DNA of 32,000 bases from Candidatus Saccharimonadota bacterium (GCA_023898645.1 CP060232.1:1102347-1134346); one strand, 5' to 3'. Shown: positions 8,570 through 28,702, numbered from the stretch's first letter. Translations and numbers: made by a program. Notes: generated from the sequence alone by a model not told the origin.

Positions 8570-10639
8570 ATGATGCAGCGCTTGTCGAACCAACTGTTTG
8601 GCGGATCGCGCACACTTCTTCGGCGTGGGGCGTTATTCATGTTTGCCGGTGTTATGGCACTAGTCGTGACAGTATCGCCACTTGCAACACGTCCAGCATC
8701 AGCTCTTAGTTTTAGTCTGACCGGCAACAGTTGCGCCATCGAAACTGTAGGGTGGGTTGTTTGCCCCACGATGCGCTCTATTGCGCGCCTAGCTGACTAT
8801 GGTTTTTCCTATATAAATCAAAGTTCTCTCGCTATAAACTATAAAATTTTCGATAATTCGAGCAAAACCTTCAAGGCATGGGAAATCATGCGCAACATCG
8901 CCAACGGCATGTTTGTTGTAGTCTTTTTATACATTATATATGGCTACCTTATAGGTCGAACCGGCGGAAACTACACCATCAAGCGGCTACTACCACGCCT
9001 CGTAATCACAGCCATCGTCGTCAACACTTCGTATTTCCTAGGGGTTATTCTAGTTGATATATCAAATATTATCGGTGATTCCATATGGAGTATATTGAAA
9101 AATATTTACGGCAACGGCAGTCCTGTCATGCCAATTGGCGGAAGCGCCAATCCACTTAGTGATGGCAATTTGACCAAAATGGCCGCGGCTGCCATGGGCA
9201 ACACAGGAATGGTATGGGTACTAATGCCTCTAATTGCTGCCGTCACTATTACTGTCGCTATCATCAGCGCCGCCATGGTGATACTTGTCATCATGCGCGA
9301 AGCACTTGTTGCCGCACTTATTTTTGCGTCACCGTTATTAATAGTCCTTTATATATTGCCCAATGTTGAGCGTTTTTCCGGACAAGCAATACGACTATTC
9401 CTACAGCTCTTGTTGCTGTACCCAATTATTGCGCTACTGTTAGGAACTGGTCAAATTGTCAGCCTGGCGGCCGGTAGCTGGAGTAATACATCTGCATTTT
9501 ACGGCGGTGGAACTATGAGTATTGTGCCCGACCTTGTTGCTGCGGCAGCAGCCGTAGTACCCTTACTAGCCGTATGGTTCGTCTTTAAGAATATGTCGTC
9601 CATCATGAACGCTGCCGGTACACGATTAACTGCAAGCATTTCCGGTCGACGAGGGGGTGGTAAAGATGACGAAAAAGCTCGCGTTACCGGCAACGCGACG
9701 GCTGGTGCCGCCAACAATAAAAACACCGGCGGGTTACTAGGCCCTATGAATCGACGCCAGGCTTATAGCCGTAATCGACGCCATTCATCGCTTGGTAATA
9801 GTAGTCTTCCGGGTGTTATACGAAGTTCCGGCGGAGAAGGCGGAGCAGGCGGCCTTGGTGGTGTCGGCGGAGAAGGCGGAGCAGGCGGTCTTGGTGGTGG
9901 GGGCGGAGCAGGCGGTCTTGGTGGTGACGGTGGAATCACAGATGTAAGACCAGAGGTTGCAAGCGGAGCGGCGTTACAAAATACCCTTAATAACGTCATA
10001 AACCCAGGTGACACAACCGCGAAACTCGAAGGTCAACAAGAAGCTCGGGTTGAGGCGGATGTAAAATCCGGCGGCGTGGATGCTGGCGAGATAGCAAAGT
10101 CGCTGTCTACTTCTGAACTACAAACTCAAGAAAAAGAGAAGAAAAAGCAGGTTACCGCGAAAGACATATTCAATAGTCTCAACAAAGATCGTGGACATTC
10201 GTCAAAAGACAAAGACCGAAAGTTCGGTGCCGGACCCGCTCCTGCAGGCGGTGGCGGTGGCGAAGCTTCGTCTGTCGGTCAGCCGTCAGCACCAGTTGCT
10301 AGTTATCAAGCACCTCAGATCGCTCAGGGTAGTAATAATGTTGTGAGTGGCAGCTCCGCTCCGCAACAACCTGTCCAAGTAATTGCCGTGCCCGTGCAGG
10401 TCGATGCTTCAACGTTACTTGGCCAAAATCATCCACCCGACAATGTCAGTCAGCCTCCAATCAGTGGAACAGAGGAAAAAGCAAAAGCGCGAGCACAAAA
10501 ATACCTTTTTGACACCGAAAAAGACCTTAGTGAAGCACGTAATGCCGATGACATCTTAAAGCACGCAAACGGCATACTAACTGAACAACCCCACACATCG
10601 AGTGCACCTGAAAATGGCGACAAGGAAGACGAGAGGTAA
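8570..10639 (+). CDS. VirB6/TrbL-like polytopic T4SS membrane protein, paralog A, with a long disordered Gly/Lys/Glu-rich tail
   Basis: 689 aa with a signal/anchor and the C-x9-C motif NSCAIETVGWVVCP. About 6-7 TM helices carry IKRLLPRLVITAIVVNTSYF, SPLLIVLYILPNVERF and VPLLAVWFVF, all shared with 17843..20164. The architecture (N-terminal loop, polytopic core, hydrophilic tail) is that of VirB6/TrbL/ConG-type proteins. Confidence 0.65.
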   Translation: MMQRLSNQLFGGSRTLLRRGALFMFAGVMALVVTVSPLATRPASALSFSLTGNSCAIETVGWVVCPTMRSIARLADYGFSYINQSSLAINYKIFDNSSKTFKAWEIMRNIANGMFVVVFLYIIYGYLIGRTGGNYTIKRLLPRLVITAIVVNTSYFLGVILVDISNIIGDSIWSILKNIYGNGSPVMPIGGSANPLSDGNLTKMAAAAMGNTGMVWVLMPLIAAVTITVAIISAAMVILVIMREALVAALIFASPLLIVLYILPNVERFSGQAIRLFLQLLLLYPIIALLLGTGQIVSLAAGSWSNTSAFYGGGTMSIVPDLVAAAAAVVPLLAVWFVFKNMSSIMNAAGTRLTASISGRRGGGKDDEKARVTGNATAGAANNKNTGGLLGPMNRRQAYSRNRRHSSLGNSSLPGVIRSSGGEGGAGGLGGVGGEGGAGGLGGGGGAGGLGGDGGITDVRPEVASGAALQNTLNNVINPGDTTAKLEGQQEARVEADVKSGGVDAGEIAKSLSTSELQTQEKEKKKQVTAKDIFNSLNKDRGHSSKDKDRKFGAGPAPAGGGGGEASSVGQPSAPVASYQAPQIAQGSNNVVSGSSAPQQPVQVIAVPVQVDASTLLGQNHPPDNVSQPPISGTEEKAKARAQKYLFDTEKDLSEARNADDILKHANGILTEQPHTSSAPENGDKEDER
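9830..9928 (+). repeat. In-frame tandem repeat (36+36+27 nt) encoding GGEGGAGGLGGx units inside the VirB6-like tail
   Basis: ggcggagaaggcggagcaggcggccttggtggtgtc, then ggcggagaaggcggagcaggcggtcttggtggtggg, then ggcggagcaggcggtcttggtggtgac. The first two units are 33/36 identical. The third lacks the first 9 nt. Confidence 0.85.
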
Positions 10640-13600
10640 TGGTTGATAAGCTTAGCCCTTCTGGACAAACAGCCCCGGAGCAGGATTACCAAAAAAAATT
10701 CAACCGAGCAAAAAAAGCCCCATCTGACACCTCGGATATAAAGGAGCAAGAAAAAAGCGGTGGCGATGCAAGCTGGAAAACCAAAGCCGATAGCAAAACA
10801 AACGAAGTATCAAAATCAGACAATTCAGGACGTAAAAAGGGTAGGTTTGGCTTCAAGGGCAGGCGAAGGGGAAAAATTCGGCAAGGTTCAGCATTTGTAT
10901 TTGTTGTAGGGCTCATTCTTGCTGGGGTCTGGTATACATCAGTGTTGGCACCAAACATATTATTGGTAAACATTAAAGAAATGTATACCAACGACCTAGC
11001 CGACGCGACTACCGCGCTCGAGATTTACACACAAATCATGTATTTCTATAAGATCGGACCTTTGTCTGGTCAAGATTGCAACATGGGGCAGCCAATGAAC
11101 ACGCAGTCCATTAAATGTAAGCTGACGACTATGAGTCGAAGTCAAAAGGAATCATTCGAAAGACAAGGCTTTAGTTTTGGAATTCCAATTCCTGACACCG
11201 TAAAGACACTGATTCCCGGTTCTGACAAGTTTGATTTTTGCGCTCAAAAAGTATACGAAGACAATCGGGACGATGGAGACCCTCGCAATGACAAGCCCGA
11301 AAGTCGCTATAGGATATTCTGCATATTACCACCAAACTACAAACAAATCATAGACTCCGTCAAAGCTGCCGGCACTTCATCAATCATGAAGACTATTCAA
11401 GGTAACGGAGATGCTCAGGGTGGTGTAACTAGTGTTTTAAATCAACTCTTAAACCCACTTAAGGATGCTACAAAAAGTCCGCAGGCTCTGCTTAATGGAA
11501 TTTTATCAGAAGCGCCAATCACCTCGGGCCCACAGTTATGGCTCTACTCACAACTCAGTACGACCGCGAAAGAACAGGTATATAGCGTATTCAACCCTAG
11601 ATCAAGTTTCTTTACTGACGCACGATTCAAGCAGCGCATAAAGTCCAGATACAACATGACAAAAAGCGTCACAGTAACCGGCAACACCGAAGCGCAGGTC
11701 AACAGCTCATTTGACAGCTCTGTACAAAAAACCGACGGAGGCATAGATGGACTCACAGGACAGCCAAATCCCACAGACGGCGTCAGCCTAGCCTCGCTTA
11801 GTAGCCCACTCAACCTCACTCAGTTGAAGTCGCTTGCTAGCACCCTGACAGGTGGTCTAAATATTAACACGATAAAAAGTTTCGGAAGTAAGCTTCCCGC
11901 AATCGCCGATCTCGAAACCGCTGGAAATTTGCTTGCAACAAACACCTACACCTACACGGACCTTATGTGTAGTTGGTATACCATCGGTGAAATGACCAAC
12001 AATGCGCTAACTCGCGCAAAAGCCACGACTGCGGCACGCTTCGCCCTGCAATATCTTAAGGCTGCCGATGCAATCAAAGCGGGTACTGCAGAAGAGGTGC
12101 CGACAAATGTCCTAGCCAGTAAATTGGCCGAGGGTACGCTGGGCGGCTATGGCGGTAGTAGTGCGACCGATTCGCTCATCTACCATTCGATTACCTATGG
12201 TGATTCAGTACCTAAATCTATCGGTGGTCTTGGTAAGCTGCTTGAAGACGCCGCAGCCATCGTCACCTATAATCTTTCGGCCTATGAAAACATCGGTACA
12301 CTTGCTGCCTCGTGGGCGCAAATAATACCTAACGCAGCAGCACTTGGTGCAATAGCTGGTACGACTGGTGAGCTTTTGCCGCCACCTGCAAATGCAACGA
12401 TGCCGGGTTCAACTCCGCTCGACAGCCAGTACTGCGAGTCGGGCGCAACAACTCAAAGTACAAGTCAAATAAAACCGGGTGATAGTAAAACCACAAAATG
12501 TATCGATGCCATCAATGCAATGGCTCCGATTGGGACACAAGGACTCGTTGCCGATGCAACCGTTACTGCTGGTCAAACGTGTCCGGAACCTCACTACGAC
12601 CAACCAGACGATACCTTCGAAGGTGAATATCTCATGTTGCCCTCACAAAAAATTGTTCAGGCAACGCTAACACCTTACGTTGCTGGGTGGTTTGGTGTAA
12701 ACACTATGCTCAGCGCCGCAATCACCCAACAACTTTACACATCACACATCAAAGGTATTGCCGCAAATTATGCGTTGTTTTCAGGTATGGGCGAACTACT
12801 GGGCGATATGGCTCAAAGTCGTGGCTTAATGCCAAGCAATACCATCGACATGGAGGCTTACTTGCATCTAGGCGAAGTACTAGGTGTCCAAAAAGACCAA
12901 GACGCAATCGCCCAATACAATGCAAAGAAAAACCCTTTTGATCCATACAATAAATTCTCGTTTGTAGGCTCAATCTTCAGCGGACTTTCACCATCCGTAG
13001 ACAATAGAGCCCCATTATTTGCCACTATCAACAACATACTTTCTCTCGTAAGCAACGGTGCTCAACATCTAGGACAAATGTCTATGGCTAATGCATTTTA
13101 TCACTCACAACCATCACTCATAACTGGTGACGGTAGTATGCCGGAACGAGAGGCGGCTTACTTACTGCGACTTTCATCGGCATTTTGTCCAATTGATCTT
13201 CAGTACCTTGCAATCGGCATCACACCCGACATTATGTGCAACGTCCGCTATAGTATGCCTCTCGAGGATATCGGTACCGCACTCAATCTATCTGGGGTTA
13301 TTGACTATATGACCCAATCTCATTCAGATGCATATAACTCACAAACCCAAGAACTAACCAAGCGCATAGGCGAGGCCGACGTAGAAGGTAACAAAGCGTA
13401 TTTAAGTGCGCAACTTGCCACCGTTGAAGCAGTCCAGAACAGGCCTTTCATCGACAAGAAAACAGGTAAGCCAACACCGGGTGGTGAATATGACAAATAC
13501 TTACAATATTGCGTTAACCGACTCGACCCATGGGGGCGTAGCGCAATTGCAGAGACATATCGTGGACTGTCAGACAAAGAAAAAGAAAAGCGTCAATCAG

Positions 13601-13926
13601 CACTCTTTCAAAACGATGAGAACGCAGGCAGCAAAAACGCTGGTGATCCAAACGAAAGAATACCAAACGGCATACCAACTATGGCTGTTACGGCAACTCA
13701 AAGCGACCAGGGATGGTACACGGGCAGTAAATGTACACGGGCAGGTCAACTGACAGACCCTTCTATATCTCAGATGCTACAGTACTTCCGCGCTTATACC
13801 ACGTTATGTTCGGTTGACGGCTCCATGTCGGGCATCGTCGACTGCACGGAGCCCGACCACGTAGAAGGGGACTATAGCGATCCGTTCTACCTAAACAACA
13901 ATATATTGTATACATCCTGGTACTAG
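10639..13926 (+). CDS. Large membrane-anchored surface protein, paralog A of the 25493..28702 protein (no hydrolase domain)
   Basis: 1095 aa. A basic, disordered N-terminus of about 85 aa is followed by one TM helix (AFVFVVGLILAGVWY) and an ectodomain of about 1000 aa. It is colinear with 25493..28702: MSRSQKESFERQGFSF vs MSEGQKARFEKEGFKV; FSFVGSIFSGL vs YSFMGQIASQL; YLQYCVNRL vs YIKYCVERK. The start is coupled to the upstream stop (TAATG) and preceded by GAGAGG. Confidence 0.7.
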   Translation: MVDKLSPSGQTAPEQDYQKKFNRAKKAPSDTSDIKEQEKSGGDASWKTKADSKTNEVSKSDNSGRKKGRFGFKGRRRGKIRQGSAFVFVVGLILAGVWYTSVLAPNILLVNIKEMYTNDLADATTALEIYTQIMYFYKIGPLSGQDCNMGQPMNTQSIKCKLTTMSRSQKESFERQGFSFGIPIPDTVKTLIPGSDKFDFCAQKVYEDNRDDGDPRNDKPESRYRIFCILPPNYKQIIDSVKAAGTSSIMKTIQGNGDAQGGVTSVLNQLLNPLKDATKSPQALLNGILSEAPITSGPQLWLYSQLSTTAKEQVYSVFNPRSSFFTDARFKQRIKSRYNMTKSVTVTGNTEAQVNSSFDSSVQKTDGGIDGLTGQPNPTDGVSLASLSSPLNLTQLKSLASTLTGGLNINTIKSFGSKLPAIADLETAGNLLATNTYTYTDLMCSWYTIGEMTNNALTRAKATTAARFALQYLKAADAIKAGTAEEVPTNVLASKLAEGTLGGYGGSSATDSLIYHSITYGDSVPKSIGGLGKLLEDAAAIVTYNLSAYENIGTLAASWAQIIPNAAALGAIAGTTGELLPPPANATMPGSTPLDSQYCESGATTQSTSQIKPGDSKTTKCIDAINAMAPIGTQGLVADATVTAGQTCPEPHYDQPDDTFEGEYLMLPSQKIVQATLTPYVAGWFGVNTMLSAAITQQLYTSHIKGIAANYALFSGMGELLGDMAQSRGLMPSNTIDMEAYLHLGEVLGVQKDQDAIAQYNAKKNPFDPYNKFSFVGSIFSGLSPSVDNRAPLFATINNILSLVSNGAQHLGQMSMANAFYHSQPSLITGDGSMPEREAAYLLRLSSAFCPIDLQYLAIGITPDIMCNVRYSMPLEDIGTALNLSGVIDYMTQSHSDAYNSQTQELTKRIGEADVEGNKAYLSAQLATVEAVQNRPFIDKKTGKPTPGGEYDKYLQYCVNRLDPWGRSAIAETYRGLSDKEKEKRQSALFQNDENAGSKNAGDPNERIPNGIPTMAVTATQSDQGWYTGSKCTRAGQLTDPSISQMLQYFRAYTTLCSVDGSMSGIVDCTEPDHVEGDYSDPFYLNNNILYTSWY

Positions 13927-13973: not shown

Positions 13974-14642
13974 TTACAACTTAACTGCAAGAGCTATTTT
14001 CTTGAGAGCTGCTAAGGAGTTGACTTCACTCATATAAATATCGTCGTCTGGCTGCGCAACTACAAATCGATACACAGTAAGCCCGTCGATAACCATCAAA
14101 TGATACTCCCGGCTGTTACCAATCGTTTGGGCGTGTCTGAAGTAAAGAGGAAGGCCATTTACCTTTCCTGCCTGCATAGTAGCTATGTAGATATGATCGT
14201 CATCAAGCGCCTTTTTATCCTTGTATATTCTTTTGTCTATATACAGACTCGACGCCACGCCGTCGATTCGAACAAACGGAAAGGTGAGTGTTTGACCAAG
14301 GTTGCCGTTGTAATTAAACACCTTGCTTACTTGAGGGTCTCCAACAGACCTTGCACTACTACCTAAAGCAGTGACCACTTGAGCCTTACTTGCAATCGAC
14401 TTCACATTAAGACTAACTCCATCTTCGATACCTGCTCGAAATCCGTCAGCTCCCACGCCACGTTGCACTCCGGGGTTTGGGTCTTTTGGCATCATTGTGA
14501 TTGATAAAACTGTTATTGCGACCGCGACTGCGCCTATGATACAGAAAATGGCCAATACAGCTATCTGTTTCTTTCGACCTATAATCACCTCTACCTCTTG
14601 TTCAAGAGGTTTTTTGTCATGAGGTTGAGTGTTTTTTGTCAT
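13974..14642 (-). CDS. Bitopic membrane protein of unknown function
   Basis: 222 aa with N-terminal TM helix IAVLAIFCIIGAVAVAITVLSI followed by a soluble domain of about 170 aa. I recognise no motif. It is the only minus-strand gene between the two + strand T4SS modules. Confidence 0.55.
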   Translation of the reverse strand: MTKNTQPHDKKPLEQEVEVIIGRKKQIAVLAIFCIIGAVAVAITVLSITMMPKDPNPGVQRGVGADGFRAGIEDGVSLNVKSIASKAQVVTALGSSARSVGDPQVSKVFNYNGNLGQTLTFPFVRIDGVASSLYIDKRIYKDKKALDDDHIYIATMQAGKVNGLPLYFRHAQTIGNSREYHLMVIDGLTVYRFVVAQPDDDIYMSEVNSLAALKKIALAVKL

Positions 14643-14730
14643 TCTACTCTTATACTATCACAGGTATTACACTCTCGGTAAAGTACTTGTCCTTAAAGTG
14701 GTGCTATTGTATCCTTATGGTGTACGTATC

Positions 14731-20245: not shown

Positions 20246-21205
20246 ATGAGTATTGAATCAAGTCCTTCTCATTCTACAGATCAAGCGTCGCCAACCGCTG
20301 CCGAAACGCTTGATGCCTATAAAGATGCCGGTCTTGATCCAAACGTCGACGCATATATAGACGAAAATAACGCTCGCGCTTATTCACAGGAGCGCGACAC
20401 CTCCGAAGTAACTAACCCCGAACAAAACGTTAATTCAATAGAAGAAGTCGTCGACAAGCCAGCAAATACTCCCGAAGAAGTAGATGCAAGTAAAACACTA
20501 CATAGTTCCAGTGAACTTAAAGAAGTGGCCCGCAAAGAAACAGAGGACCGTCTAGACCTTAGGGACAAGGCTATGAACACAAAAGATCGAGTCATGAAAA
20601 AGGCACTCATGTATGATCAACGAGATTCTGCACGTCAGTGGAAAGTGGTGCGCCTAGAGGCGAAACTCGAGAACTCAAGAGCACGTAACCCAAACTCAAA
20701 CAGAACGCGACAACTCGAACGAAAATTAAACTGGCAACGCATGATGCTGGGAAATATCCGGAAGAAATCCGGAGCTATCGATTCACGTATGGACAACAGG
20801 GGTGACCGACGTAAAAATATTGAAAACGCAAAAGAAAACGCAAAAGCACTCCGTAAAAAACTACAGGAAGCCGCCAAGGAGACCGAAAAAGAAAGACGAC
20901 GACGCTGGCAGGTTCGAAAAGAAGCTTTTACGTCGAAAAGTGAAACGCGCAAGAAGCAATTAAGAGCTGAGATGCGGTCGTGGGACAAAAACACGCTTGC
21001 TAAGTTTTACCAAGAAAAAGTTAATGAATCGGTGAAACGATATGAATCAGATGAAAATATTAACAATGCGATTGATAGACTTGAAGCTGCGGCCGCAAAC
21101 AATAACCCAGTGAACTCGGAAATTAACGAAGAAATCAGCAATACTGTCGACAAACTCAAAAGTGCCGTTGATACTACCGAGCATAACCCCAATGTGGTAG
21201 AGTAA
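20246..21205 (+). CDS. Highly charged (K/R/E-rich) predicted coiled-coil protein of unknown function
   Basis: 319 aa with no TM segment. It has an acidic N-terminus followed by long basic and acidic helical-looking stretches (RKLNWQRMMLGNIRKK..., KENAKALRKKLQEAAKETEKERRRRWQVRKE). It lies immediately upstream of the VirB3/VirB4 core. Confidence 0.55.
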   Translation: MSIESSPSHSTDQASPTAAETLDAYKDAGLDPNVDAYIDENNARAYSQERDTSEVTNPEQNVNSIEEVVDKPANTPEEVDASKTLHSSSELKEVARKETEDRLDLRDKAMNTKDRVMKKALMYDQRDSARQWKVVRLEAKLENSRARNPNSNRTRQLERKLNWQRMMLGNIRKKSGAIDSRMDNRGDRRKNIENAKENAKALRKKLQEAAKETEKERRRRWQVRKEAFTSKSETRKKQLRAEMRSWDKNTLAKFYQEKVNESVKRYESDENINNAIDRLEAAAANNNPVNSEINEEISNTVDKLKSAVDTTEHNPNVVE

Positions 21206-21210
21206 AAACC

Positions 21211-21566: not shown

Positions 21567-22685
21567 ATGGCGGTTTACAAAGTACCTCAGGACGTCGAGG
21601 CGGACGACAAACTGATCGGTCCGTTCAGTTTTCGCCAATTCATCTATTTGATAGTGGTGGCTATTTCGATAGCCGGCGCCTGGGGGCTTTCCCAAGTGTT
21701 TATACCTTTGGCGATTATACCTTTGCCGATAATAGTCTTTTTCGCGGCTCTTGCCTTACCGTTACGTAAAGATCAGCCCATGGAAGCCTATCTGTCTGCA
21801 GTGGTGTCTTTTTATTTCCTAAAATCGCGCAAACGATTCTGGATACCCGACGGTATCGACTCTTTCGTAACGATCATACCGCCAAAAGACGCTGATCGCA
21901 TACTGACAAAAGGTTTCGACGATGTCGAGGCGACAAAACGACTCGGCTACCTGGCTGACCTGGTAGACACTCACGGCTGGGCTATACGTGGTGCCGGCGG
22001 CACACCTGATACGTCAATTAGCACCGACCTGTACTATGAGTCACAGCAAACTGTCGACATGATGGACGGCTCGACGCCACAAGCTCAGGCAATGGCGCAA
22101 CACCTACAAAAAGAGGCGGCTGGTCATCGTCAGGATGCAATCGAGACTATGCAAACAGCTAAAAAAGCCGCCCCGGTAGCGACAACACAAGCTCCTGCTA
22201 CCGTCACGGTGAAATCAAATACACCACCAGCCCCTCAAGCCACAGCTACAATCAAGACTACACCGAATGCTCCGGCTCAACCTGCGCAAGTCCCACCGCC
22301 AGAAAGCAATGACACACCACCGGTATCTAAACTTCCCCCTCTAGAGAAAATTCGTGCGGCTCGAATGTCTAATGCGGCTCAACAAAAGGCAGAAAAGGAC
22401 TCCAAAGACGCACTCGCTCTCGTAAACGGACTAATCGAAGAGGCGGGCGAAAAAAAGAGTACCCCTGCTGTTAAACCAGTGCCCGAAAAACCCGCAAGCA
22501 CTAGCGTTCCTACCCCCGATACTGCTACAATGGTGCTAACGCAAAAACAGGCAGGTGATTTGTCACAGCAAAAGGATGTTTCTGTCGAAACGCTCGCTAA
22601 AGAGGCAAACCGCGTCGCGAAGAAAAATGAAGCCGATAATAAGATTTTGAAAGACGGCGACGAAGTAACAATTTCGTTTCACTAG
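21567..22685 (+). CDS. PrgI-family (VirB3-like) T4SS membrane protein with a long Pro/Ala/Thr/Gln-rich C-terminal extension
   Basis: The N-terminus MAVYKVPQDVEADDKLIGPFSFRQFIYLIVVAISIAGAWGL...PLRKDQPMEAYLSAVVSFYFLKSRKRFW matches the PrgI pattern: a-x-VP-x-D...(D/E)K-x-x-G-x-(L/F)-(T/S)-x-RQ, then a two-TM hairpin, then D/G-x-P-x-E. It sits directly upstream of the VirB4 genes, as VirB3 homologs do. Confidence 0.7.
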   Translation: MAVYKVPQDVEADDKLIGPFSFRQFIYLIVVAISIAGAWGLSQVFIPLAIIPLPIIVFFAALALPLRKDQPMEAYLSAVVSFYFLKSRKRFWIPDGIDSFVTIIPPKDADRILTKGFDDVEATKRLGYLADLVDTHGWAIRGAGGTPDTSISTDLYYESQQTVDMMDGSTPQAQAMAQHLQKEAAGHRQDAIETMQTAKKAAPVATTQAPATVTVKSNTPPAPQATATIKTTPNAPAQPAQVPPPESNDTPPVSKLPPLEKIRAARMSNAAQQKAEKDSKDALALVNGLIEEAGEKKSTPAVKPVPEKPASTSVPTPDTATMVLTQKQAGDLSQQKDVSVETLAKEANRVAKKNEADNKILKDGDEVTISFH

Positions 22686-22700
22686 GTGGAGGTAAGAAGG

Positions 22701-23570
22701 ATGGGACCAAACTCACAGCAACCAGCAGCCGCCCCTGTCCGTGGACAGGCTCCTGCTGGTATGCCTGGTCAGCCGGTACCACCTGGCGCACCGGGGCAGC
22801 CAGACCCAGCCCACACCCCGCCGCCACCAACCAACCCAAATACAACCCAAAACAGCTTGCTGTTTTCGGAACTACGAGACAACATGGTTATCATGAACGA
22901 TGGCAGTTTTCGCGCAGTCATCGCCTGTAAATCTATAAATTTTGACTTGATGAGTAGTAAAGAACGTGAAGGTATTGAATATAGTTACCAAAACTTCTTG
23001 AACTCGCTATACTTTCCGGTACAAATCCTCATCCGTTCGCAGCGCGTCGACATTGGCCCATACATAGAGCGCCTGACTAACATCCGTCGCGACCAAGAAA
23101 ACATGCTACTAAACGTACTTACTGACGACTACATTGACTTTATCGATACCCTTAGCCAAGAGGCGAACATTATGGATAAATCATTCTATGTTATCGTCCC
23201 TTATTGGCCACACGGCGACATCAACACGATCAAACGAGGTAGCAAAAGCTTGTTTAGTACGATTTTTGGCGGCACGCCACAGCAACGCTCAATCGTCGTT
23301 GACCATGCCCAATATGAAAAAGCGAAGGATGAAATAAAAAACCACTGTGATTCTGTAATGAGTGGTCTGTTTCAGCTTGGCATCAAATGTGTTCAACTTA
23401 ATACCAGAGAGCTGGGCGAGCTTTATTATAATTTCTACAATCCAGACACGGCCGTTCGAGAACCACTTGGCGACTTCGGAAGTATTACCGCTATGTACGT
23501 ACGCAAGGGTCAGGGCGAGGCGCCAAAACCTCACTTAATTCGCGAAGAAGATAGGGATGGACCGCAATAA
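22701..23570 (+). CDS. Protein resembling a stand-alone VirB4/TraC-type N-terminal domain (function unproven)
   Basis: I prefer the ATG at 22701, preceded by GGAGGT; the track uses the GTG at 22686. A Pro-rich N-terminus is followed by LFSELRDNMVIMNDGSFRAVIACKSINFDLMSSKEREGIEYSYQNFLNSLYFPVQILIRSQRVDI. That pattern (I-x-dG...y-x-x-I...iNf-x-L-x-S-x-x-E...f-x-x-fLn-x-L...QI) recurs at the N-termini of Gram-positive VirB4 ATPases. It has no Walker motifs. Its stop overlaps the virB4 start (TAATG). Confidence 0.45.
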   Translation: MGPNSQQPAAAPVRGQAPAGMPGQPVPPGAPGQPDPAHTPPPPTNPNTTQNSLLFSELRDNMVIMNDGSFRAVIACKSINFDLMSSKEREGIEYSYQNFLNSLYFPVQILIRSQRVDIGPYIERLTNIRRDQENMLLNVLTDDYIDFIDTLSQEANIMDKSFYVIVPYWPHGDINTIKRGSKSLFSTIFGGTPQQRSIVVDHAQYEKAKDEIKNHCDSVMSGLFQLGIKCVQLNTRELGELYYNFYNPDTAVREPLGDFGSITAMYVRKGQGEAPKPHLIREEDRDGPQ

Positions 23571-25474
23571 TGAGCGCTAAACGACCCGACGCCGTAGACA
23601 TAGCCGCCCAACAACGTGCCCGCGAGCAGGCTGAAGTTGAACAAGCATTTCAAAAGGGAATTACGACTCTACGTGATTTAGTAGCACCGGCTTCTTTGGA
23701 AATACACGCCAGCTACTTCAGGCTAGGTACTAAATACGGACGTACCATCTATGTATATGCGTATCCTCGTCAGATCTACACTGGCTGGTTGTCGAGTATC
23801 ATCAACATCGATGAAGTGCTTGATGTTAGTATGTACTTCTACCCGGTAGAGTCTGAGATTGTGCTCAAAAACCTGCGCAAAAAAGTGACTCAAATGCAGG
23901 CAACTATGGCTATCAACGAAGAAAAGGGCCGTACGCGCGACCCAGGACTCGAAGCCGCTCTTAACGACGCCGAGGAGCTGCGTGATGAAATCCAGGTTGG
24001 CTCGGAGCGATTTTTCCGTTACGGACTCTACATCACTATGTATGCCGACAGCCTCGACGAGCTAAACTTCATACAACATAAAATCGAAACCATCTTTGGT
24101 CAGCAACTCGTCTTTAGTAAGGTTGCTTCTAGTCAACAGGAGCAGGGAATCAACAGTACCGTGCCACAGATGACAGACCAGCTGCAGATTCGCCGCAACA
24201 TGAACACCGGTGCAATTTCAACGTCATTCCCATTCACAAGTGCCGACCTGACACAAGAAAAGGGCATCCTGTACGGGATCAATATGCACAACAACGGTTT
24301 GATTATCTTTGACAGGTTTACCTTGGAAAACGCCAATATGGTTGTCTTTGCAAAGTCTGGTTCCGGTAAGTCATTCACCGTTAAGCTTGAGGCGATTCGC
24401 TCTATGATGATGGGCGCTGACGTTTTGATTATCGACCCTGAAAACGAATATCAGAAGCTTTCAGATGCCGTTGGCGGTAGTTATATACGCCTATCACTTA
24501 ACTCTGACGTTCGTGTTAATCCGTTTGACCTGCCACGAGTTGTTGACACTGAAGAAGCTGATGACGCGTTGCGTGCCAACTTGGTAACACTCCACGGTCT
24601 ACTGCGACTTATGCTCGGTGGTGCTTCACTACAAGCGAGTGGTCAAACAAATGTTTCCGCCATGACACCCGCCGAGGAAGCTGATTTGGATCAAGCGTTA
24701 ATCGACACATACGCTCGAGCTGGCATTACTAGTGATCCGCTAACACACACTTCGCCGCCGCCAACAATGGTTGACCTGTATGACACGCTTGTTCACATGG
24801 AAGGCAGCGGCCCATCGCTTGCACAGCGTCTCCGTAAGTACACTACCGGTACATTCGCAGGTATTTTCAGTCAGCAGTCTAATATAGACATCAATAACCA
24901 GATGGTTGTGTTTAACATTCGTGACCTTGAGGATGAACTGCGACCAGTTGCTATGTATATCGTCCTAAGCCACATTTGGAATGTTACTCGAAGCCACTTA
25001 AAGAAACGTATGTTGATCGTGGATGAGGCATGGCAGCTTATGAAATACGAAGACAGTGCAAACTTTTTGTTCAGTCTCGCGAAACGTGCTCGAAAATACT
25101 ACCTTGGCGTTACAACCATTAGTCAGGACGTCGAGGACTTCATGGCGAGTAAAATGGGTCGCGCCATCGTAGCCAACAGCTCTATGCAGCTACTTCTCAA
25201 ACAGTCGCCAAGTGCGGTCGACGTGCTCGCTGACGTCTTTAAGCTCACCGACGAAGAGCGCAAGCGACTTAGTAACTTCCCAGTCGGTCAAGGACTTTTC
25301 TTTGCTGGTGCTAATCACGTCCATATTCAGGTTGTTGCTAGCCGTACCGAACATCAACTCGTTACAACAAGCCCAGTTCAGCTACTTCAGCAAGAGGAGC
25401 AAAAGCGCATGGAGACATTAGCGGCGCAACAACGAGAATCACAAGGGCAGCAAGCAGCTGATCAACAAGGATAA
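23570..25474 (+). CDS. virB4: VirB4-family T4SS ATPase
   Basis: 634 aa. The N-domain reads LVAPASLEIHASYFRLGTKYGRTIYVYAYPRQIYTGWLSSII. Walker A is VVFAKSGSGKSFTVK, followed by LIIDPENEYQKL...VNPFDL. Walker B is KRMLIVDEAWQLM. The motif TTISQDVEDF is also present. Confidence 0.93.
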   Translation: MSAKRPDAVDIAAQQRAREQAEVEQAFQKGITTLRDLVAPASLEIHASYFRLGTKYGRTIYVYAYPRQIYTGWLSSIINIDEVLDVSMYFYPVESEIVLKNLRKKVTQMQATMAINEEKGRTRDPGLEAALNDAEELRDEIQVGSERFFRYGLYITMYADSLDELNFIQHKIETIFGQQLVFSKVASSQQEQGINSTVPQMTDQLQIRRNMNTGAISTSFPFTSADLTQEKGILYGINMHNNGLIIFDRFTLENANMVVFAKSGSGKSFTVKLEAIRSMMMGADVLIIDPENEYQKLSDAVGGSYIRLSLNSDVRVNPFDLPRVVDTEEADDALRANLVTLHGLLRLMLGGASLQASGQTNVSAMTPAEEADLDQALIDTYARAGITSDPLTHTSPPPTMVDLYDTLVHMEGSGPSLAQRLRKYTTGTFAGIFSQQSNIDINNQMVVFNIRDLEDELRPVAMYIVLSHIWNVTRSHLKKRMLIVDEAWQLMKYEDSANFLFSLAKRARKYYLGVTTISQDVEDFMASKMGRAIVANSSMQLLLKQSPSAVDVLADVFKLTDEERKRLSNFPVGQGLFFAGANHVHIQVVASRTEHQLVTTSPVQLLQQEEQKRMETLAAQQRESQGQQAADQQG

Positions 25475-25492: not shown

Positions 25493-28400
25493 ATGGCCCT
25501 GACAACAAAAGGTGGCATCCCAGATCAGGACAATGGCAACCACAACCCATCTGAATTTGACTCAAGTGATACTGCTCGTGGCTTAAGCCAACTCGAAAAC
25601 CACCCAGACAATCCGTCAGATGACGACTCCGAACAAGGTATTCAAAACGCAGAAAATTTTGCCAATAGCGACAGTAGTAATGGCAACCCTTTTGATTCTT
25701 ATTACAAAAAGAAGATGGGTGGCAATAAGAGCGGTCAACATATTGATACTCACGGTGACACCGTACAAGACAACCCTAACGCTGATACGCCAAACTTAAA
25801 GGAGAGGGAAGAAAATCCAGGATCTCTCTATAAGTCCGGTGAGGAATCGTCTGTTAATCCGAAATCGGGAGGACGTTGGAAATCAAAATTTTTATCGAAC
25901 GCTAAGCGTTATGGTGCAAGCGGTGGTGCTGCCGGTTTAGTTATCGGTGGTTTTTTCGGAGTAAGCGTCATCATGGTGCCGGGGTCTCTGCTTGTAACCA
26001 TCGAAAAGGCGATTACTAATGATAGTTCTGATTCAACGCGAACCAATATTTCGTTTCGTCGAGCCTATGTCTCTAAACTTTTTAATAAGGGAAATTCCAG
26101 CACGGGTTCAAAGATAGAAGACAAGCTGACTAGTATGAGTGAAGGCCAAAAAGCAAGATTCGAAAAAGAGGGCTTTAAGGTAGAACTGAATACAAAAGGC
26201 AAGATAAAATCCATGAAATTCCCTGATGGCACTTTAGTTAAAGATGGCGCTTCCTTTAATAGTCATGCCGAGAATACAGTCGAAGGTAGACGTGCAACCA
26301 GTAACGTACTCGACGTTAGGTCTGCATTTTTTGAGAATCAAAAGTTCAAGGATGTACTTAAAAACTTCAATATCGAGAAGGGGAAACGCCTTAAGCCATC
26401 TGAAGACGCTGACCCCGCGAAGCGTAAAAAAGCCATCGATGAATCGTTTGATGAAAATACAAAATTAAAGGCAGAGAATACGAGTGATCCAAAAGCTGTA
26501 GATAGTAGGGTTAAAGACCTAGAATCAAAAACAGTTGAAAGTAGCAGCCTTAAATCAAAAGTAACCGAAATTACCGACAAAGCAGGAAAAGCCGCTCTTG
26601 CCGCACTTCCGATATCAACCGTCTGTGCATCTTATAATGTCGCAAGATTGACGACCGCAACCATAAAGGCAGAATGGATTTATCAGCTTGTTAGTTTTGC
26701 CTATCCGTTCGTGCGGGCGGCAGCCCAGATAGAGGATCAGGGTGACATCGAACCGTCAGTCGTAGAAAATCTAGCTAATCGATTAACGTGGTATGACCCG
26801 AATAAAACCCTGCCAAGTCCAGATCCATCATTACCAGGATCAAAAGCGGGTGATCCAAATCCAAAATATAATTTAACCGCCATGGATTCGCAGGGATTAC
26901 AAATGGCTATATATGGTGATTTTTCTGGCTTAACTCAATTTGCTAAAAATTACACCTCTTGGGGCTGGGAGGTTAGTGTTAATTCTATTGCCAATAAATA
27001 CATCAATCTTGTGCGAAGTGTTGCTGGTAGTAAACAAAATGTAAAAGATATCTGTTTGGGCGCAAAACTCGTTAACGAAGCAGCTACCATACAGTGTGCC
27101 GCAGGACCAGTTGCAGCCGCTTTATGTGTAGCGGGCGTACTTGTACTACCAACGGTTGGTAAGATAGCCGCTGGAGCACTGGCGGCCGAACTCGCAAAAC
27201 CAGCGCTGGCATTTCTTGCTAGAGTTGACCTTTCCTCTACTACTCAGGGTGTAGATGCTGGTAATGCTCTTGCAGCTGGCATCGGACTGCTATTATCCAA
27301 CTCAACCCTAGGCTCTGGATTGCGCCCGGTTGGCGGCACTTCAAAGGCGCAAATGTTACAAAAAATAAAAGGATTCATCGCTGATACGAACGAAACAAAC
27401 TATAAATACACAACCCAACTTGCTCTCGATGAAGCTAAAAGAAACCAGTTTGACGTATCAAACCAATATTCGTTTATGGGTCAAATAGCTTCTCAGTTAA
27501 ACCCTTATCTAAATGGAGACGGAACTTTCTTTAGCAGGATTGCTAGTATGGTGCGTGTTATTGGTACGTCATTTAGTAAATTACCGACATCGGCTAACGC
27601 CTTATTTAGCCAACCTTCAAATATGACACTCGAAGATGGGATTAATGGGGACCCAGCATCTAATCGTATAAATAAATGCGCGGACCAAGATATGGAGACT
27701 ATCGGTGCGGCATGCGATTGGTCTGGGAGGATAATTGGCTACACCACCAACAATGTCCTTCAGGGATTAAATCAAATTGCAAACAATAAAATCGCAGGCG
27801 GTTCGGATATACTCACAAAAAGTATTAATTTCATGATAAACGACAAGACGGAATACAGAGATCCAACCACTGGCGTCTCAAAGACAATAGACGGTGATAT
27901 TAATCAAGATACTGGCGAAACGATTTCTCATTCAAATTTTGAAAATTACATAAAATACTGCGTTGAGCGTAAGAGTCCTAATAATGGAACTGTTCCAATT
28001 GGTTCGTCGGTAGAATCAATTGCCGAAGATGACGGTAATTGGTTTGACGGTGAACGATGTCTAGGTAAAGATAATAAGGATCAAACGATGCTCGACAGTT
28101 TTGCTACATACTACAACTGGTGTTACGTGCAGTACGCTACTGCCGAGCGGATGACTGATTGCGTGCATAATACACCAGAAGCAAACAATGCAGCTAATGT
28201 ATCGAGCGATTGCGGTGACGGCTCAACCGGTAGTATTTACTCTTGTGCACTACAGTTCGACCCTTACGCGTATTCCTACGGAGCTGGTCACGATGAATAT
28301 GGAAAAGTTTCCTGGTATCAAAATTTTAAAACGAATACTCCCTCACCAAACTCTAATCCGTTCGACTGCTCGAGTTTAGTTATGGCATCAGTTGTCGCAG

Positions 28401-28702
28401 CGTTCGGACACGACATACCGGGTATGTCGGCACCTAGCAGCTTTCATGACACCACGCATTGGCAAAAACTTCCCGATGGAAGCGCGCAGCAAGGCGATGT
28501 CATAGTCTGGAACGGTCACGTAGAAATAATTAAAAGCAAAGATGGCAACGGCTATACGACGTTTGGTGCACACACCCACCACGCGAATAATCAAGAGGCA
28601 GATATTAGTGGAGGGAGTTATGGTTTACATGGAGAAGGTCAAGGCGACGCCTATGACGGAGTTTATCGATACGTAGGTCCGGGAGCGAGTAAATCAGTAT
28701 GA
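25493..28702 (+). CDS. Large membrane-anchored surface protein, paralog B, with a C-terminal NlpC/P60 cysteine peptidase domain (VirB1-function analogue)
   Basis: 1069 aa with a disordered acidic/polar N-terminus, one TM helix (AAGLVIGGFFGVSVIMVPGSLLV) and a large ectodomain colinear with 10639..13926. The C-terminal NlpC/P60 signature is NPFDCSSLVMASVVAAFGHDIPGMSAP...QQGDVIVWNGHVEIIKS...FGAHTHH, with the Cys codon at 28367..28369. Confidence 0.8.
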   Translation: MALTTKGGIPDQDNGNHNPSEFDSSDTARGLSQLENHPDNPSDDDSEQGIQNAENFANSDSSNGNPFDSYYKKKMGGNKSGQHIDTHGDTVQDNPNADTPNLKEREENPGSLYKSGEESSVNPKSGGRWKSKFLSNAKRYGASGGAAGLVIGGFFGVSVIMVPGSLLVTIEKAITNDSSDSTRTNISFRRAYVSKLFNKGNSSTGSKIEDKLTSMSEGQKARFEKEGFKVELNTKGKIKSMKFPDGTLVKDGASFNSHAENTVEGRRATSNVLDVRSAFFENQKFKDVLKNFNIEKGKRLKPSEDADPAKRKKAIDESFDENTKLKAENTSDPKAVDSRVKDLESKTVESSSLKSKVTEITDKAGKAALAALPISTVCASYNVARLTTATIKAEWIYQLVSFAYPFVRAAAQIEDQGDIEPSVVENLANRLTWYDPNKTLPSPDPSLPGSKAGDPNPKYNLTAMDSQGLQMAIYGDFSGLTQFAKNYTSWGWEVSVNSIANKYINLVRSVAGSKQNVKDICLGAKLVNEAATIQCAAGPVAAALCVAGVLVLPTVGKIAAGALAAELAKPALAFLARVDLSSTTQGVDAGNALAAGIGLLLSNSTLGSGLRPVGGTSKAQMLQKIKGFIADTNETNYKYTTQLALDEAKRNQFDVSNQYSFMGQIASQLNPYLNGDGTFFSRIASMVRVIGTSFSKLPTSANALFSQPSNMTLEDGINGDPASNRINKCADQDMETIGAACDWSGRIIGYTTNNVLQGLNQIANNKIAGGSDILTKSINFMINDKTEYRDPTTGVSKTIDGDINQDTGETISHSNFENYIKYCVERKSPNNGTVPIGSSVESIAEDDGNWFDGERCLGKDNKDQTMLDSFATYYNWCYVQYATAERMTDCVHNTPEANNAANVSSDCGDGSTGSIYSCALQFDPYAYSYGAGHDEYGKVSWYQNFKTNTPSPNSNPFDCSSLVMASVVAAFGHDIPGMSAPSSFHDTTHWQKLPDGSAQQGDVIVWNGHVEIIKSKDGNGYTTFGAHTHHANNQEADISGGSYGLHGEGQGDAYDGVYRYVGPGASKSV

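What the first reader, a model, noticed from the sequence alone, without database searches (positions are those of the whole stretch)
8570..28702. The locus is built from two anciently duplicated modules: VirB6-like channel plus ~1,100-aa anchored surface protein
The VirB6-like proteins A (8570..10639) and B (17843..20164) share motifs along the whole TM core. These are CAIExxGWxxCP, IKR(L/M)LPRL(V/I)I(T/A)A(I/V)(V/A)VN(T/V)SY(F/Y), SP(L/I)xxV(L/M)Y(I/L)LPNxE(R/K) and VPLLAVW. Their tails are unrelated: a Gly-repeat, K/E-rich tail in A and an alanine/lysine-rich helical domain of about 330 aa in B. The giant proteins A (10639..13926) and B (25493..28702) are colinear from the TM anchor to the Cys-containing C-terminal region. 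Only B continues into an NlpC/P60 peptidase. In module A the two genes are translationally coupled (TAATG at 10639). Only one VirB3/VirB4 set is present. That implies either a heteromeric channel using both VirB6 paralogs, or two alternative translocon/surface assemblies powered by one ATPase. VirB6 multiplication is known in Rickettsiales. I do not know of an example in which VirB6 is paired with a duplicated giant surface protein.
Basis: partly seen in the sequence, partly recalled or inferred. Interest (0 to 1): 0.7.

Follow-up and report, generated by a model that had tools for sequence, protein, structure and literature searches.

The report
Expanded secretion-system locus in an ultrasmall bacterium
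This is the type IV secretion gene cluster of an ultrasmall Saccharibacteria-type bacterium. Its channel protein is present twice, and a large, previously unnamed wall-spanning surface protein is present three times, not twice. That gives a fuller parts list for a machine these parasites need to live on their host bacteria.

Summary
The two 689/773-aa proteins are paralogs (35% identity, E=5e-55). They are VirB6/TrbL-like at family level. The two ~1,100-aa proteins are true homologs over about 730 columns (profile-profile E=1.4e-79), and the TAATG overlap is real and conserved.

The "two duplicated modules" reading is only partly right.
- The same genome has a third giant paralog (977 aa, M23 peptidase head) starting 51 nt beyond the window.
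- The second "module" is not a module. Its order VirB6–VirB3–VirB4–hydrolase resembles pCF10 prgH-I-J-K (order recalled from my own knowledge).
- One other Saccharimonadales genome has two VirB6 genes but no giant A, and those two look independently duplicated.
- Two VirB6 genes in Saccharibacteria were already noted in earlier work.

The giants themselves are the new result. They form a large unnamed family (1,279 clusters at 50% identity). They have no Pfam hit and no match to any solved structure, despite a confident model. Each is a single-pass anchor plus an all-helical, cysteine-bearing ectodomain. Most carry interchangeable cell-wall hydrolase heads (M23, NlpC/P60, VanY, amidase). Giant A is a conserved headless copy, translationally coupled to a divergent VirB6.

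Verdict: a new variant of a known system, of moderate interest.

The parts
8570..10639 (+). B6-A: VirB6/TrbL-like polytopic membrane protein. It has an N-terminal TM plus 5 TM segments and a ~340-aa Gly-repeat, K/E-rich tail that I infer to be cytoplasmic.
   Evidence: Paralog of B6-B. Hydropathy. Family members hit Pfam TrbL/TrbL_3. Foldseek top 4 hits are R388 TrwI/VirB6. The Gly repeat is a tandem DNA repeat at 9829-9926.
10639..13926 (+). Giant A (GA). It has an N-terminal basic tail that I infer to be cytoplasmic, one TM (~84-106), and a ~990-aa all-helical, Cys-containing ectodomain. There is no enzymatic head. It is translationally coupled to B6-A.
   Evidence: AF2 pLDDT 80.4, pTM 0.83. 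No PDB or viral fold match. All 16 GA-clade representatives lack a tail domain.
13974..14642 (-). o222: conserved small membrane-anchored protein of unknown function, part of the block found only in type I loci.
   Evidence: Conserved in 15 related loci. No Pfam hit.
14629..16824 (+). Secreted or anchored BD-FAE/alpha-beta-hydrolase esterase. The true start is probably the ATG at about 14731.
   Evidence: Pfam BD-FAE 5.5e-19. Co-inherited with B6-A and GA (Spearman 0.72-0.76). Absent from L020.
16888..17772 (+). o294: hypervariable small anchored protein upstream of B6-B.
   Evidence: Homolog found in only 1 of the related loci. No family hit.
17843..20164 (+). B6-B: VirB6/TrbL-like polytopic membrane protein with a Cys-rich external insertion (~330-387) and a ~330-aa helical C-terminal domain.
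   Evidence: The ortholog in L027 hits TrbL/TrbL_3 weakly. Its history is decoupled from the left block.
20246..21205 (+). cc319: K/E-rich soluble protein, hypervariable.
   Evidence: No homolog in any related locus. No family hit.
21567..22685 (+). PrgI-family protein (VirB3-like).
   Evidence: Pfam PrgI 3.8e-13, 50.2 bits against a cut-off of 27.
22686..23570 (+). TrsD-like protein (N-terminal part of a split VirB4).
   Evidence: NCBIfam TrsD 1.6e-6 and VirB4_plasma N-terminus 4e-7, both below cut-off. Orthologs are annotated PF26593 TraC-like.
23570..25474 (+). VirB4 ATPase of the CD1110 (Gram-positive conjugation) family.
   Evidence: NCBIfam conju_CD1110 376.7 bits against a cut-off of 325. 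92-97% identical among type I genomes.
25493..28702 (+). Giant B (GB): the same scaffold as GA plus a C-terminal NlpC/P60-type cell-wall peptidase head (~950-1069).
   Evidence: Orthologs carry M23 heads instead.
28699..29166 (+). o155: small anchored protein that follows GB.
   Evidence: Conserved in 6 loci.
29166..30536 (+). Phage-tail-lysozyme-like muramidase (first of two in the genome).
   Evidence: Pfam Phage_lysozyme2 3.6e-24. The second copy lies after GC.
30548..31975 (+). o475: anchored protein of unknown function. It is the last gene before the third giant (GC), which starts at window-equivalent position 32051.
1731..7425 (.). Array of six VirB2-like pilin genes: 1731-2204 (+), 3788-4222 (-), 4280-4660 (-), 4674-5090 (-), 5397-5864 (-), 6250-7425 (-). 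A related 122-aa gene sits at 5872-6240 (-). comF-like and hsp20 genes are interspersed.
   Evidence: Pfam T4SS_pilin/TrbC. Cross-hits between o122 and the long pilin.
7520..8488 (-). o322: anchored protein, divergently transcribed from B6-A.
   Evidence: Conserved weakly in 13 loci.

Best explanation
What it is. The window holds most of the chromosomal type IV secretion (T4SS) locus of a Saccharimonadia (Patescibacteria/CPR) bacterium, which lies close to dnaA. The system is of the Gram-positive type. Its gene order is VirB6–VirB3–VirB4–anchored wall hydrolase, which as I recall matches pCF10 prgH-I-J-K. A VirB2-like pilin array is added.

Expanded parts around one motor. Several structural parts have been multiplied around a single VirB3/VirB4 motor:
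- six pilins;
- two VirB6-like channel subunits (B6-A, B6-B);
- two tail-lysozyme-like enzymes;
- three members of a previously unnamed 'giant scaffold' family (GA, GB, and GC just beyond the window).

The giant scaffold. Each giant has a basic N-terminal tail, one transmembrane helix, and a ~900-aa all-helical ectodomain. Six cysteines are invariant across the GA and GB families.
- GB (NlpC/P60 head) and GC (M23 head) are the wall-cutting, VirB1/PrgK-like components. They hold a hydrolase far out from the membrane.
- The head is swapped freely between orthologs.
- GA is a headless copy under purifying selection.

Proposed mechanism. GA's gene overlaps the stop codon of B6-A. GA and B6-A are therefore probably made together, and I infer that they bind each other as a membrane-plus-wall sub-assembly. 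Both VirB6 paralogs then probably serve the same motor in non-redundant roles.

Shown: homology, conserved coupling, domain swapping and phylogenetic distribution. TM segments are shown by hydropathy; their in/out orientation is inferred from the basic N-terminal tails and the conserved cysteines.

Inferred: physical pairing, non-redundancy, and the role in breaching the cell wall (the bacterium's own or the host's).
For: - Paralogy.
- VirB6 likeness.
- Gram-positive-type core: VirB4 CD1110 family above cut-off and PrgI above cut-off.
- TM segments (orientation inferred).
- Coupling, conserved in 13 of 14 loci.
- Third giant and second lysozyme in the same genome (0 mismatches over 8,703 nt of overlap). 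The same layout occurs in five other genomes.
- Head classes among the 150 best representatives: 55 M23, 26 NlpC/P60, 20 unassigned, 8 VanY, 4 Amidase_3. All 16 GA-clade members are headless.
- Family size: 1,279 clusters at 50% identity.
- Confident model with no solved or viral fold match.
- Published Tn-seq in Southlakia ML1. The giant after VirB4, the lysozyme and both VirB6-like genes are scored essential at the later time points (PMC10633639 supplement).
- TM7x has two virB6 genes with opposite expression timing.
- The locus lies next to recF-dnaN-dnaA.
Against: - No direct evidence that GA binds B6-A, or that either belongs to the T4SS machine rather than merely lying in the locus.
- The window's own B6-A and B6-B do not reach any Pfam or NCBIfam VirB6 model.
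- The B6-A structure model is poor (pLDDT 49), so its TrwI match is weak (E about 5e-3, TM 0.2-0.4).
- The Southlakia comparison rests on gene order, lengths and supplement annotations, not on sequences I could align. Southlakia also lacks GA.
- B6-B and GB show no special co-variation (Spearman 0.37, 6 genomes).
- The window's own NlpC/P60 head scores below Pfam's threshold.
Confidence: 0.6

Rival explanations
1. A single ancient duplication copied a two-gene VirB6+giant module. The two modules now give either a heteromeric channel or two alternative translocon/surface assemblies driven by one ATPase.
For: Both families are duplicated, with each copy forming its own clade. B6-A and GA are adjacent and coupled. 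B6-A and GA occur together in all type I loci and are both absent from L020 (by sequence) and apparently from Southlakia (by gene order and lengths). This fits a joint origin. Their pairwise distances correlate (Spearman 0.86).
Against: There are three giants, not two. B6-B and GB are not adjacent and sit in what I recall as the ordinary PrgH-I-J-K order. The 0.86 correlation is shared with the neighbouring esterase (0.72-0.76), so it reflects common descent of a block, not specific pairing. Distances between giant clades are star-like (0.21-0.28), and there is no VirB6 outgroup, so one event cannot be told from several. L020 shows that VirB6 can duplicate on its own.
Confidence: 0.3
2. The block B6-A–GA–o222–esterase was not duplicated in place. 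It was acquired by recombination from another Patescibacterial T4SS locus, making it a xenolog, and inserted between the pilin array and the core.
For: The four genes are present or absent as a block. In NJ trees the GA clade does not sit next to the GB clade. Between-clade identities are equally low. Recombination within this locus is shown by the conflicting, 100%-supported groupings of B6-B against B6-A, GA and the esterase.
Against: No donor lineage was identified. All relatives that carry a taxon label are annotated Saccharibacteria/Saccharimonadales, apart from a few stray database labels. NJ trees at 20-30% identity are unreliable. GC content of the block is not distinct from the rest of the locus.
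Confidence: 0.15
3. B6-A and GA are not parts of the secretion machine. They form a separate envelope system, for example an adhesion or uptake device, or a pilus-assembly platform for the adjacent pilin array. On this view they merely share ancestry and location with T4SS genes.
For: They appear to form their own transcription unit: they are divergent from the pilin genes and followed by a gene on the opposite strand, with a promoter-like site at 8531-8559 (not above chance). GA has no hydrolase head. B6-A is the more divergent VirB6 clade, with a disordered tail unlike that of B6-B.
Against: In R388, VirB6 is itself the platform on which the pilus and stalk are built (the structures matched). 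A pilus-platform role would therefore still be a T4SS role. No separate ATPase or other energy source is encoded in the block. The position is conserved inside the T4SS locus in every locus examined.
Confidence: 0.1

Closest known systems
T4SS loci of cultivated Saccharibacteria: Southlakia epibionticum ML1 (SEML1_0006-0019) and Nanosynbacter lyticus TM7x
   Same: Near the replication genes (recF in Southlakia; recF-dnaN-dnaA here). Pilin array, two VirB6-like genes, PrgI, TrsD-like gene, VirB4, then a ~1,100-aa protein with a C-terminal peptidase, then a lysozyme. Shown to be essential by Tn-seq (PMC10633639). Two virB6 genes were noted in TM7x.
   Different: Southlakia has no GA, no esterase block and, from its gene list, no third giant. 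Its two VirB6-like proteins are ~1,000-1,090 aa with ARM-like tails. Its giant carries an M15B-type head rather than NlpC/P60. In the similarly arranged L020, the two VirB6 genes group together rather than as A and B. The giant scaffold is not described as a family in the four papers I checked.
Gram-positive conjugative T4SS (MPF-FATA), e.g. pCF10 PrgH-PrgI-PrgJ-PrgK; CD1110-type elements
   Same: Same core order: VirB6-like, VirB3-like, VirB4, then a membrane-anchored wall hydrolase. The VirB4 belongs to the CD1110 family and the PrgI family is present. A phylogenetic link is reported in PMC12102498.
   Different: No coupling protein or relaxase in the window. VirB2-like pilins are present. 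VirB4 is split. The hydrolase sits on a ~900-aa helical scaffold that has no tblastn match in 72,556 plasmids. VirB6 and the scaffold are multiplied.
Rickettsiales Rvh/VirB systems with arrays of 'extended' VirB6 paralogs
   Same: Several divergent VirB6 paralogs with large hydrophilic extensions serve one set of ATPases. Pilin genes are also multiplied (own knowledge; extended VirB6 described in PMC12857230; pilin arrays).
   Different: Those are diderm MPF-T systems. The paralogs lie in tandem and are not paired with a scaffold or hydrolase protein. I did not retrieve or align any Rickettsiales VirB6 sequence here.
R388 TrwI/VirB6 in the solved T4SS stalk (PDB 7o3v, 8rt9, 8rtd)
   Same: Best structural matches of the B6-A model (probability 0.95-0.99, ~270 aligned columns, 17-18% identity). 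Polytopic helical core.
   Different: The match is weak (E 5e-3 to 1e-2, TM 0.2-0.4) and comes from a low-confidence model. No VirB5 partner was recognised here. The profile search of PDB sequences found nothing.
VirB1-like bifunctional wall hydrolases of Gram-positive elements (PrgK, TraG of pIP501, CwlT)
   Same: N-terminal anchor with extracellular peptidoglycan hydrolase domain(s), encoded beside VirB4 or VirB6. NlpC/P60 (CHAP-like) and M23 (LytM-like) domains also occur there (own knowledge; PMC12102498).
   Different: The conserved part here is the large non-catalytic ectodomain, which has no detectable relative in solved structures. The catalytic head is a swappable appendage and is absent in GA.

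Membership tests
VirB6/TrbL (Pfam PF04610, PF19590) | Significant match to the family profile | tested here: inconclusive
   The window's own B6-A and B6-B give no hit even at E<=1. 11 of 17 aligned family members hit PF04610 (best E=1.4e-6). Orthologs of both paralogs carry TrbL_3/TrbL in precomputed annotation.
VirB6/TrbL (Pfam PF04610, PF19590) | Polytopic inner-membrane protein with at least 5 TM helices and a large external loop | tested here: met
   Hydropathy gives 6 segments in B6-A and 6-7 in B6-B. The conserved Cys pair (CAIExxGWxxCP) lies in the first loop.
VirB6/TrbL (Pfam PF04610, PF19590) | Fold similar to solved VirB6 (TrwI) | tested here: inconclusive
   The top 4 of 350,542 PDB chains are TrwI/VirB6 (probability 0.95-0.99). 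However, E is only 5e-3 to 1e-2, TM is 0.2-0.4, and the model's pLDDT is 49.
VirB6/TrbL (Pfam PF04610, PF19590) | Encoded with VirB3 and VirB4 | tested here: met
   PrgI and VirB4 lie 1.4 kb and 3.4 kb downstream of B6-B. The order is conserved in all related loci.
Gram-positive-type (MPF-FATA) T4SS | VirB4 of the Gram-positive conjugation clade | tested here: met
   NCBIfam conju_CD1110 scores 376.7 bits against a cut-off of 325.
Gram-positive-type (MPF-FATA) T4SS | PrgI/VirB3-like small membrane protein | tested here: met
   Pfam PrgI scores 50.2 bits against a cut-off of 27.
Gram-positive-type (MPF-FATA) T4SS | Coupling protein (VirD4/TcpA) and relaxase, for a conjugative system | tested here: not met
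   None of the 26 ORFs scanned (all the likely genes of at least 100 aa) hits a coupling protein or relaxase family. The rest of the genome was not examined. The same absence is reported for Patescibacteria in general (PMC12102498).
Gram-positive-type (MPF-FATA) T4SS | Absence of VirB2-type pilins | tested here: not met
   Six T4SS_pilin/TrbC genes lie in the window. This is a known peculiarity of Patescibacterial systems.
VirB1/PrgK-like anchored T4SS wall hydrolase (for GB and GC) | Peptidoglycan hydrolase domain | tested here: met
   GC: M23 (precomputed Pfam; PHROG endolysin 1.6e-21). GB: NlpC/P60 below threshold in the window copy (16.3 vs 23 bits) but above it for the representative of its tail cluster (27.5 bits).
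VirB1/PrgK-like anchored T4SS wall hydrolase (for GB and GC) | Sequence homology to PrgK, TraG or CwlT outside the catalytic domain | tested here: not met
   No tblastn match of GB residues 1-880 in 72,556 plasmids. No Pfam, NCBIfam or PHROG hit to the scaffold.
VirB1/PrgK-like anchored T4SS wall hydrolase (for GA) | Peptidoglycan hydrolase domain | tested here: not met
   GA ends 26 residues after the last conserved Cys. All 16 GA-clade representatives are headless.
Rickettsiales-type VirB6 paralog array | Multiple VirB6 paralogs with large hydrophilic extensions in one genome | tested here: met
   Two paralogs with unrelated tails of about 340-370 aa.
Rickettsiales-type VirB6 paralog array | Diderm MPF-T machinery (VirB7/9/10 outer-membrane core) | tested here: not met
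   No such components were found among the window ORFs.

The most novel reading that the evidence does not exclude
The giant scaffold family would be a Patescibacteria-specific structural class of T4SS component with a fold unlike any solved structure. It would build the extracellular part of the machine across the epibiont's wall towards the host. The interchangeable hydrolase heads of GB and GC would be aimed at the host's peptidoglycan type. The headless GA, with its dedicated VirB6 paralog, would form a second, non-lytic conduit or docking assembly on the same motor. The locus would then encode two functionally distinct outer assemblies for host breaching and for transfer.
Probability: 0.2. 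Interest if true: 0.8.

Novelty: new variant of a known kind. Interest (0 to 1): 0.55.

Why it matters
The T4SS is essential for the epibiotic growth of Saccharibacteria, yet its role is described as completely unknown (PMC11665869). Published parts lists stop at VirB1/2/3/4/6-like genes.

This analysis adds three things:
- a large, conserved, unnamed component family with a confident model but no solved structural relative;
- evidence that its wall-hydrolase head is swapped between at least four Pfam-identified enzyme classes, plus one unassigned tail type;
- a conserved headless paralog tied to its own VirB6.

These give concrete targets for genetics, multimer prediction and cryo-ET. They also yield a testable idea: head class may track the host's cell-wall chemistry. 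Separately, the VirB6 nearest the motor and its flanking genes turn over by recombination, as expected for parts exposed to host-range selection.

Tried and rejected
- Profile searches of PDB sequences with the VirB6 alignment and the giant alignment found nothing usable.
- A phmmer search of the GB head against PDB gave only chance hits.
- Foldseek of the GA model against PDB and BFVD gave no match. Ideas that the scaffold resembles lytic transglycosylase superhelices, VirB5, or phage tape-measure/tail proteins therefore have no support.
- tblastn of the GB scaffold and the B6-B core against plasmids gave no match.
- PHROGs gave nothing for the scaffolds or the small flanking genes.
- The literature search for the database label 'iviTM7', attached to one GA homolog, found no paper.
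- I tested whether B6-B and GB co-vary as a 'module B'. The result was a Spearman correlation of only 0.37 in 6 genomes, so the idea is not supported.
- I tried to date the duplications from NJ trees. The giant clades are star-like and the VirB6 tree has no outgroup, so rooting is undetermined.
- Promoter and terminator scans were not above the shuffle expectation.
- The genome-contig scan used a single peptide pattern and returned mostly A-type loci, so the taxonomic breadth of the sample is limited.
- Taxon names for distant representatives were mostly unavailable.
- The metagenome-contig scan was not used.

Full report
**Observation**

All four ORFs lie at the stated coordinates. B6-A (8570..10639) and B6-B (17843..20164) align at 35% identity over 349 residues (E=5e-55). 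All four quoted motifs are present, and nothing significant aligns in the tails.

Giant A (GA, 10639..13926) and giant B (GB, 25493..28702) give three colinear BLASTP segments (E=1e-12, 0.027, 9e-10). I built family alignments from database homologs. The profile-profile comparison gives probability 100%, E=1.4e-79, over 733 aligned columns. Twenty columns are invariant across 58 sequences of both families, six of them cysteines.

The B6-A stop and the GA start overlap (GAGAGGTAATGG). A stop/start overlap is present in 13 of the 14 related loci that contain both genes.

**Organism and system**

GA and GB are identical to proteins H6797_05895 and H6797_05945 of a 1.13-Mb MAG contig labelled Candidatus Nomurabacteria. 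Apart from a few stray database labels, all other labelled relatives are annotated Saccharibacteria or Saccharimonadales.

The window encodes:
- a PrgI-family (VirB3-like) protein, above the Pfam cut-off;
- a TrsD-like protein;
- a VirB4 of the CD1110 Gram-positive conjugation family, above the NCBIfam cut-off;
- a phage-tail-lysozyme-like enzyme;
- six VirB2-like pilins.

This is the chromosomal T4SS already described for Patescibacteria (PMC12102498; PMC7427843). It is essential for epibiotic growth of Southlakia epibionticum (PMC10633639), and its role is still called completely unknown (PMC11665869). In this genome it lies next to recF-dnaN-dnaA, as in a related locus.

**Are the 689/773-aa proteins VirB6-like?**

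The window's own copies hit no VirB6 model. At family level the link holds:
- 11 of 17 aligned relatives hit Pfam TrbL.
- Orthologs of both paralogs carry TrbL_3/TrbL annotations.
- Hydropathy shows the expected polytopic core.
- The B6-A model is poor (pLDDT 49). Even so, its four best matches among 350,542 PDB chains are TrwI/VirB6 of R388 (probability 0.95-0.99, E about 5e-3 to 1e-2).

I accept 'VirB6/TrbL-like' with moderate confidence.

**What are the giants?**

Each has a basic N-terminal tail, one transmembrane helix and a ~900-aa ectodomain. With a 58-sequence alignment, AlphaFold2 gives a confident all-helical model of GA (pLDDT 80.4, pTM 0.83). That model has no match in the PDB (best E 0.33, probability 0.04) or among viral models. 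Neither scaffold hits Pfam, NCBIfam, PHROGs, PDB sequences or plasmids.

The family is nonetheless large. A profile search of 1.84 billion representatives finds 1,279 clusters at E<=1e-3 and 574 at E<=1e-30.

I classified the regions after the last conserved cysteine among the 148 best representatives of at least 700 aa plus the two window proteins (150 sequences):

| Tail type | Count |
|---|---|
| Peptidase_M23 | 55 |
| NlpC/P60 (includes GB) | 26 |
| Unassigned type with motifs that look metallopeptidase-like to me | 20 |
| VanY | 8 |
| Amidase_3 | 4 |
| Three minor types (two unassigned, one matching P0163's precomputed PF04450) | 4 |
| No enzymatic tail | 33 |

Some members also carry an Exo_endo_phos domain. 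Southlakia's equivalent carries an M15B-type head. The conserved element is thus the scaffold, and the wall hydrolase is an interchangeable head. All 16 representatives of the GA clade are headless. GA is also well conserved (49-81% identity among 11 genomes), so it is a maintained, non-catalytic paralog.

**A third giant**

A contig identical to the window over 8,703 nt continues past its right end. It shows a 977-aa gene starting at window-equivalent position 32051. This protein matches the giant profile (E=9.3e-65) and ends in an M23 domain. It is followed by a second tail-lysozyme gene, a PEGA protein and a small gene, then recF, dnaN and dnaA.

This third copy (GC) is present in five other genomes. 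One of them shows a clean tandem cassette, [giant–lysozyme–PEGA–small gene] twice. In NJ trees GA, GB and GC fall in separate deep clades with star-like between-clade identities of 0.21-0.28.

**Is there a duplicated two-gene module?**

Gene order is conserved in every related locus recovered that carries B6-A and GA ('type I'). The order is: pilins – o322 – B6-A – GA – o222 – esterase – variable gene – B6-B – variable gene(s) – PrgI – TrsD – VirB4 – GB – o155 – lysozyme – o475 – GC – lysozyme – PEGA.

B6-A/GA is a genuine coupled pair. B6-B and GB, however, flank the motor genes in an order that, as I recall, matches pCF10 prgH-prgI-prgJ-prgK.

A different Saccharimonadales genome (L020) has two VirB6-like genes, one giant, and no GA or esterase. 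From its published gene list, Southlakia ML1 looks the same. In L020 the two VirB6 genes group with each other and with the B6-B clade (NJ bootstrap 100/100). This suggests an independent duplication, although concerted evolution or tree artefact cannot be excluded.

B6-A and GA are therefore gained or lost together, along with o222 and the esterase. That fits a joint origin. It does not show that they arose by copying a B6-B+GB unit.

**Histories within the locus**

Among 11 type I genomes, pairwise identities behave as follows:

| Comparison | Spearman correlation |
|---|---|
| B6-A vs GA | 0.86 |
| B6-A vs esterase | 0.76 |
| GA vs esterase | 0.72 |
| B6-B vs B6-A, GA or esterase | about 0.03 (-0.03 to 0.03) |

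Strongly supported groupings conflict. The window groups with L001 and L002 for B6-A, GA and the esterase (100/100/96% bootstrap). For B6-B, L002 groups with L005 and L015 (100%).

The genes flanking B6-B are hypervariable. o294 has a homolog in only one related locus and cc319 in none. B6-B and GB do not specifically co-vary (0.37 in six genomes). VirB4 is 92-97% identical, and GB falls into types that match its head class. The part of the locus around B6-B is evidently subject to replacement or recombination.

**Mechanism (inferred)**

One VirB3/VirB4 motor serves expanded sets of outer parts. GB and GC, each followed by a lysozyme gene (directly, or after one small gene), are the wall-cutting components, analogous to VirB1/PrgK. 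They present a hydrolase on a long helical scaffold. Because the head class changes freely between close relatives while the scaffold persists, the target may be the host wall rather than the bacterium's own; this is a hypothesis.

GA and B6-A are probably made together and associate as a headless membrane-plus-wall sub-assembly. Non-redundancy of two VirB6 paralogs is suggested by two published results:
- Tn-seq in Southlakia scores both as essential at the later time points.
- Expression timing is opposite for the two virB6 genes of TM7x.

Those paralogs may not be orthologous to B6-A and B6-B. Whether the channel is heteromeric or there are two assemblies remains open.

**Comparison and novelty**

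The system is a member of the known Patescibacterial, Gram-positive-like T4SS. Two VirB6 genes in Saccharibacteria had been noted before, as had pilin arrays and the peptidase and lysozyme genes after virB4. In the literature I could search, I found no description of the following:
- the giant scaffold as a family;
- its interchangeable heads;
- its triplication;
- the headless GA coupled to a dedicated VirB6;
- the decoupled history of B6-B.

I rate the finding as a new variant of a known kind, with moderate interest (0.55).

Noticed in passing
just beyond the window: window-equivalent 32051 onward (L023 8754..11687): A third giant-family paralog (GC, 977 aa, M23 head) follows o475. It is followed by a second Phage_lysozyme2 gene, a PEGA protein and a small gene, then recF, dnaN and dnaA. 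The T4SS locus therefore abuts the dnaA–dnaN–recF region, presumably the replication origin.
   Followed up: yes
window 1731..7425: Six VirB2-like pilin paralogs, one of them 391 aa long, plus a related 122-aa gene. comF-like and hsp20 genes are embedded in the array. The same arrangement is conserved in related loci.
   Followed up: partly
window 16888..17772 and 20246..21205: The two genes flanking B6-B are hypervariable. o294 has a homolog in only one related locus and cc319 in none, while the surrounding genes are conserved. B6-B itself shows a phylogeny that conflicts with the left part of the locus, which suggests a recombination or replacement hotspot.
   Followed up: partly
window 14629..16824: A secreted or anchored BD-FAE/alpha-beta-hydrolase esterase with a Thr/Pro-rich linker and a Gly/Ser-rich C-terminal region. 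It is co-inherited with B6-A and GA and absent from the L020-type locus. It could be a wall- or lipid-modifying accessory enzyme. The listed GTG start overlaps o222, and the real start is probably the ATG near 14731.
   Followed up: partly
representatives P0232, P0213, P0196 (giant family): Some giant-family members carry an endonuclease/exonuclease/phosphatase (Exo_endo_phos) domain in addition to, or instead of, a wall-hydrolase head. This hints that the scaffold can display other enzymes.
   Followed up: no
L025 10001..20939: A related genome shows a clean tandem duplication of a four-gene cassette: giant (M23), tail lysozyme, PEGA protein, small protein.
   Followed up: partly
window 9829..9926: The glycine-rich stretch in the B6-A tail is encoded by a 36-nt/27-nt tandem DNA repeat (92-100% matches). 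Its length may vary between strains.
   Followed up: no
window 22686..25474: VirB4 is split into a TrsD-like N-terminal gene and the ATPase gene, with overlapping stop and start (TAATG at 23570). PrgI and TrsD are also directly abutted. VirB4 is very conserved (92-97% among type I genomes, 84% to L020), in contrast with 24-64% for GB.
   Followed up: partly
L020 10001..12790: In this Saccharimonadales genome the B6-B-like gene appears split into a 587-aa ORF, with a 330-aa N-terminal extension, and a 340-aa ORF that matches the B6-B C-terminal region.
   Followed up: no
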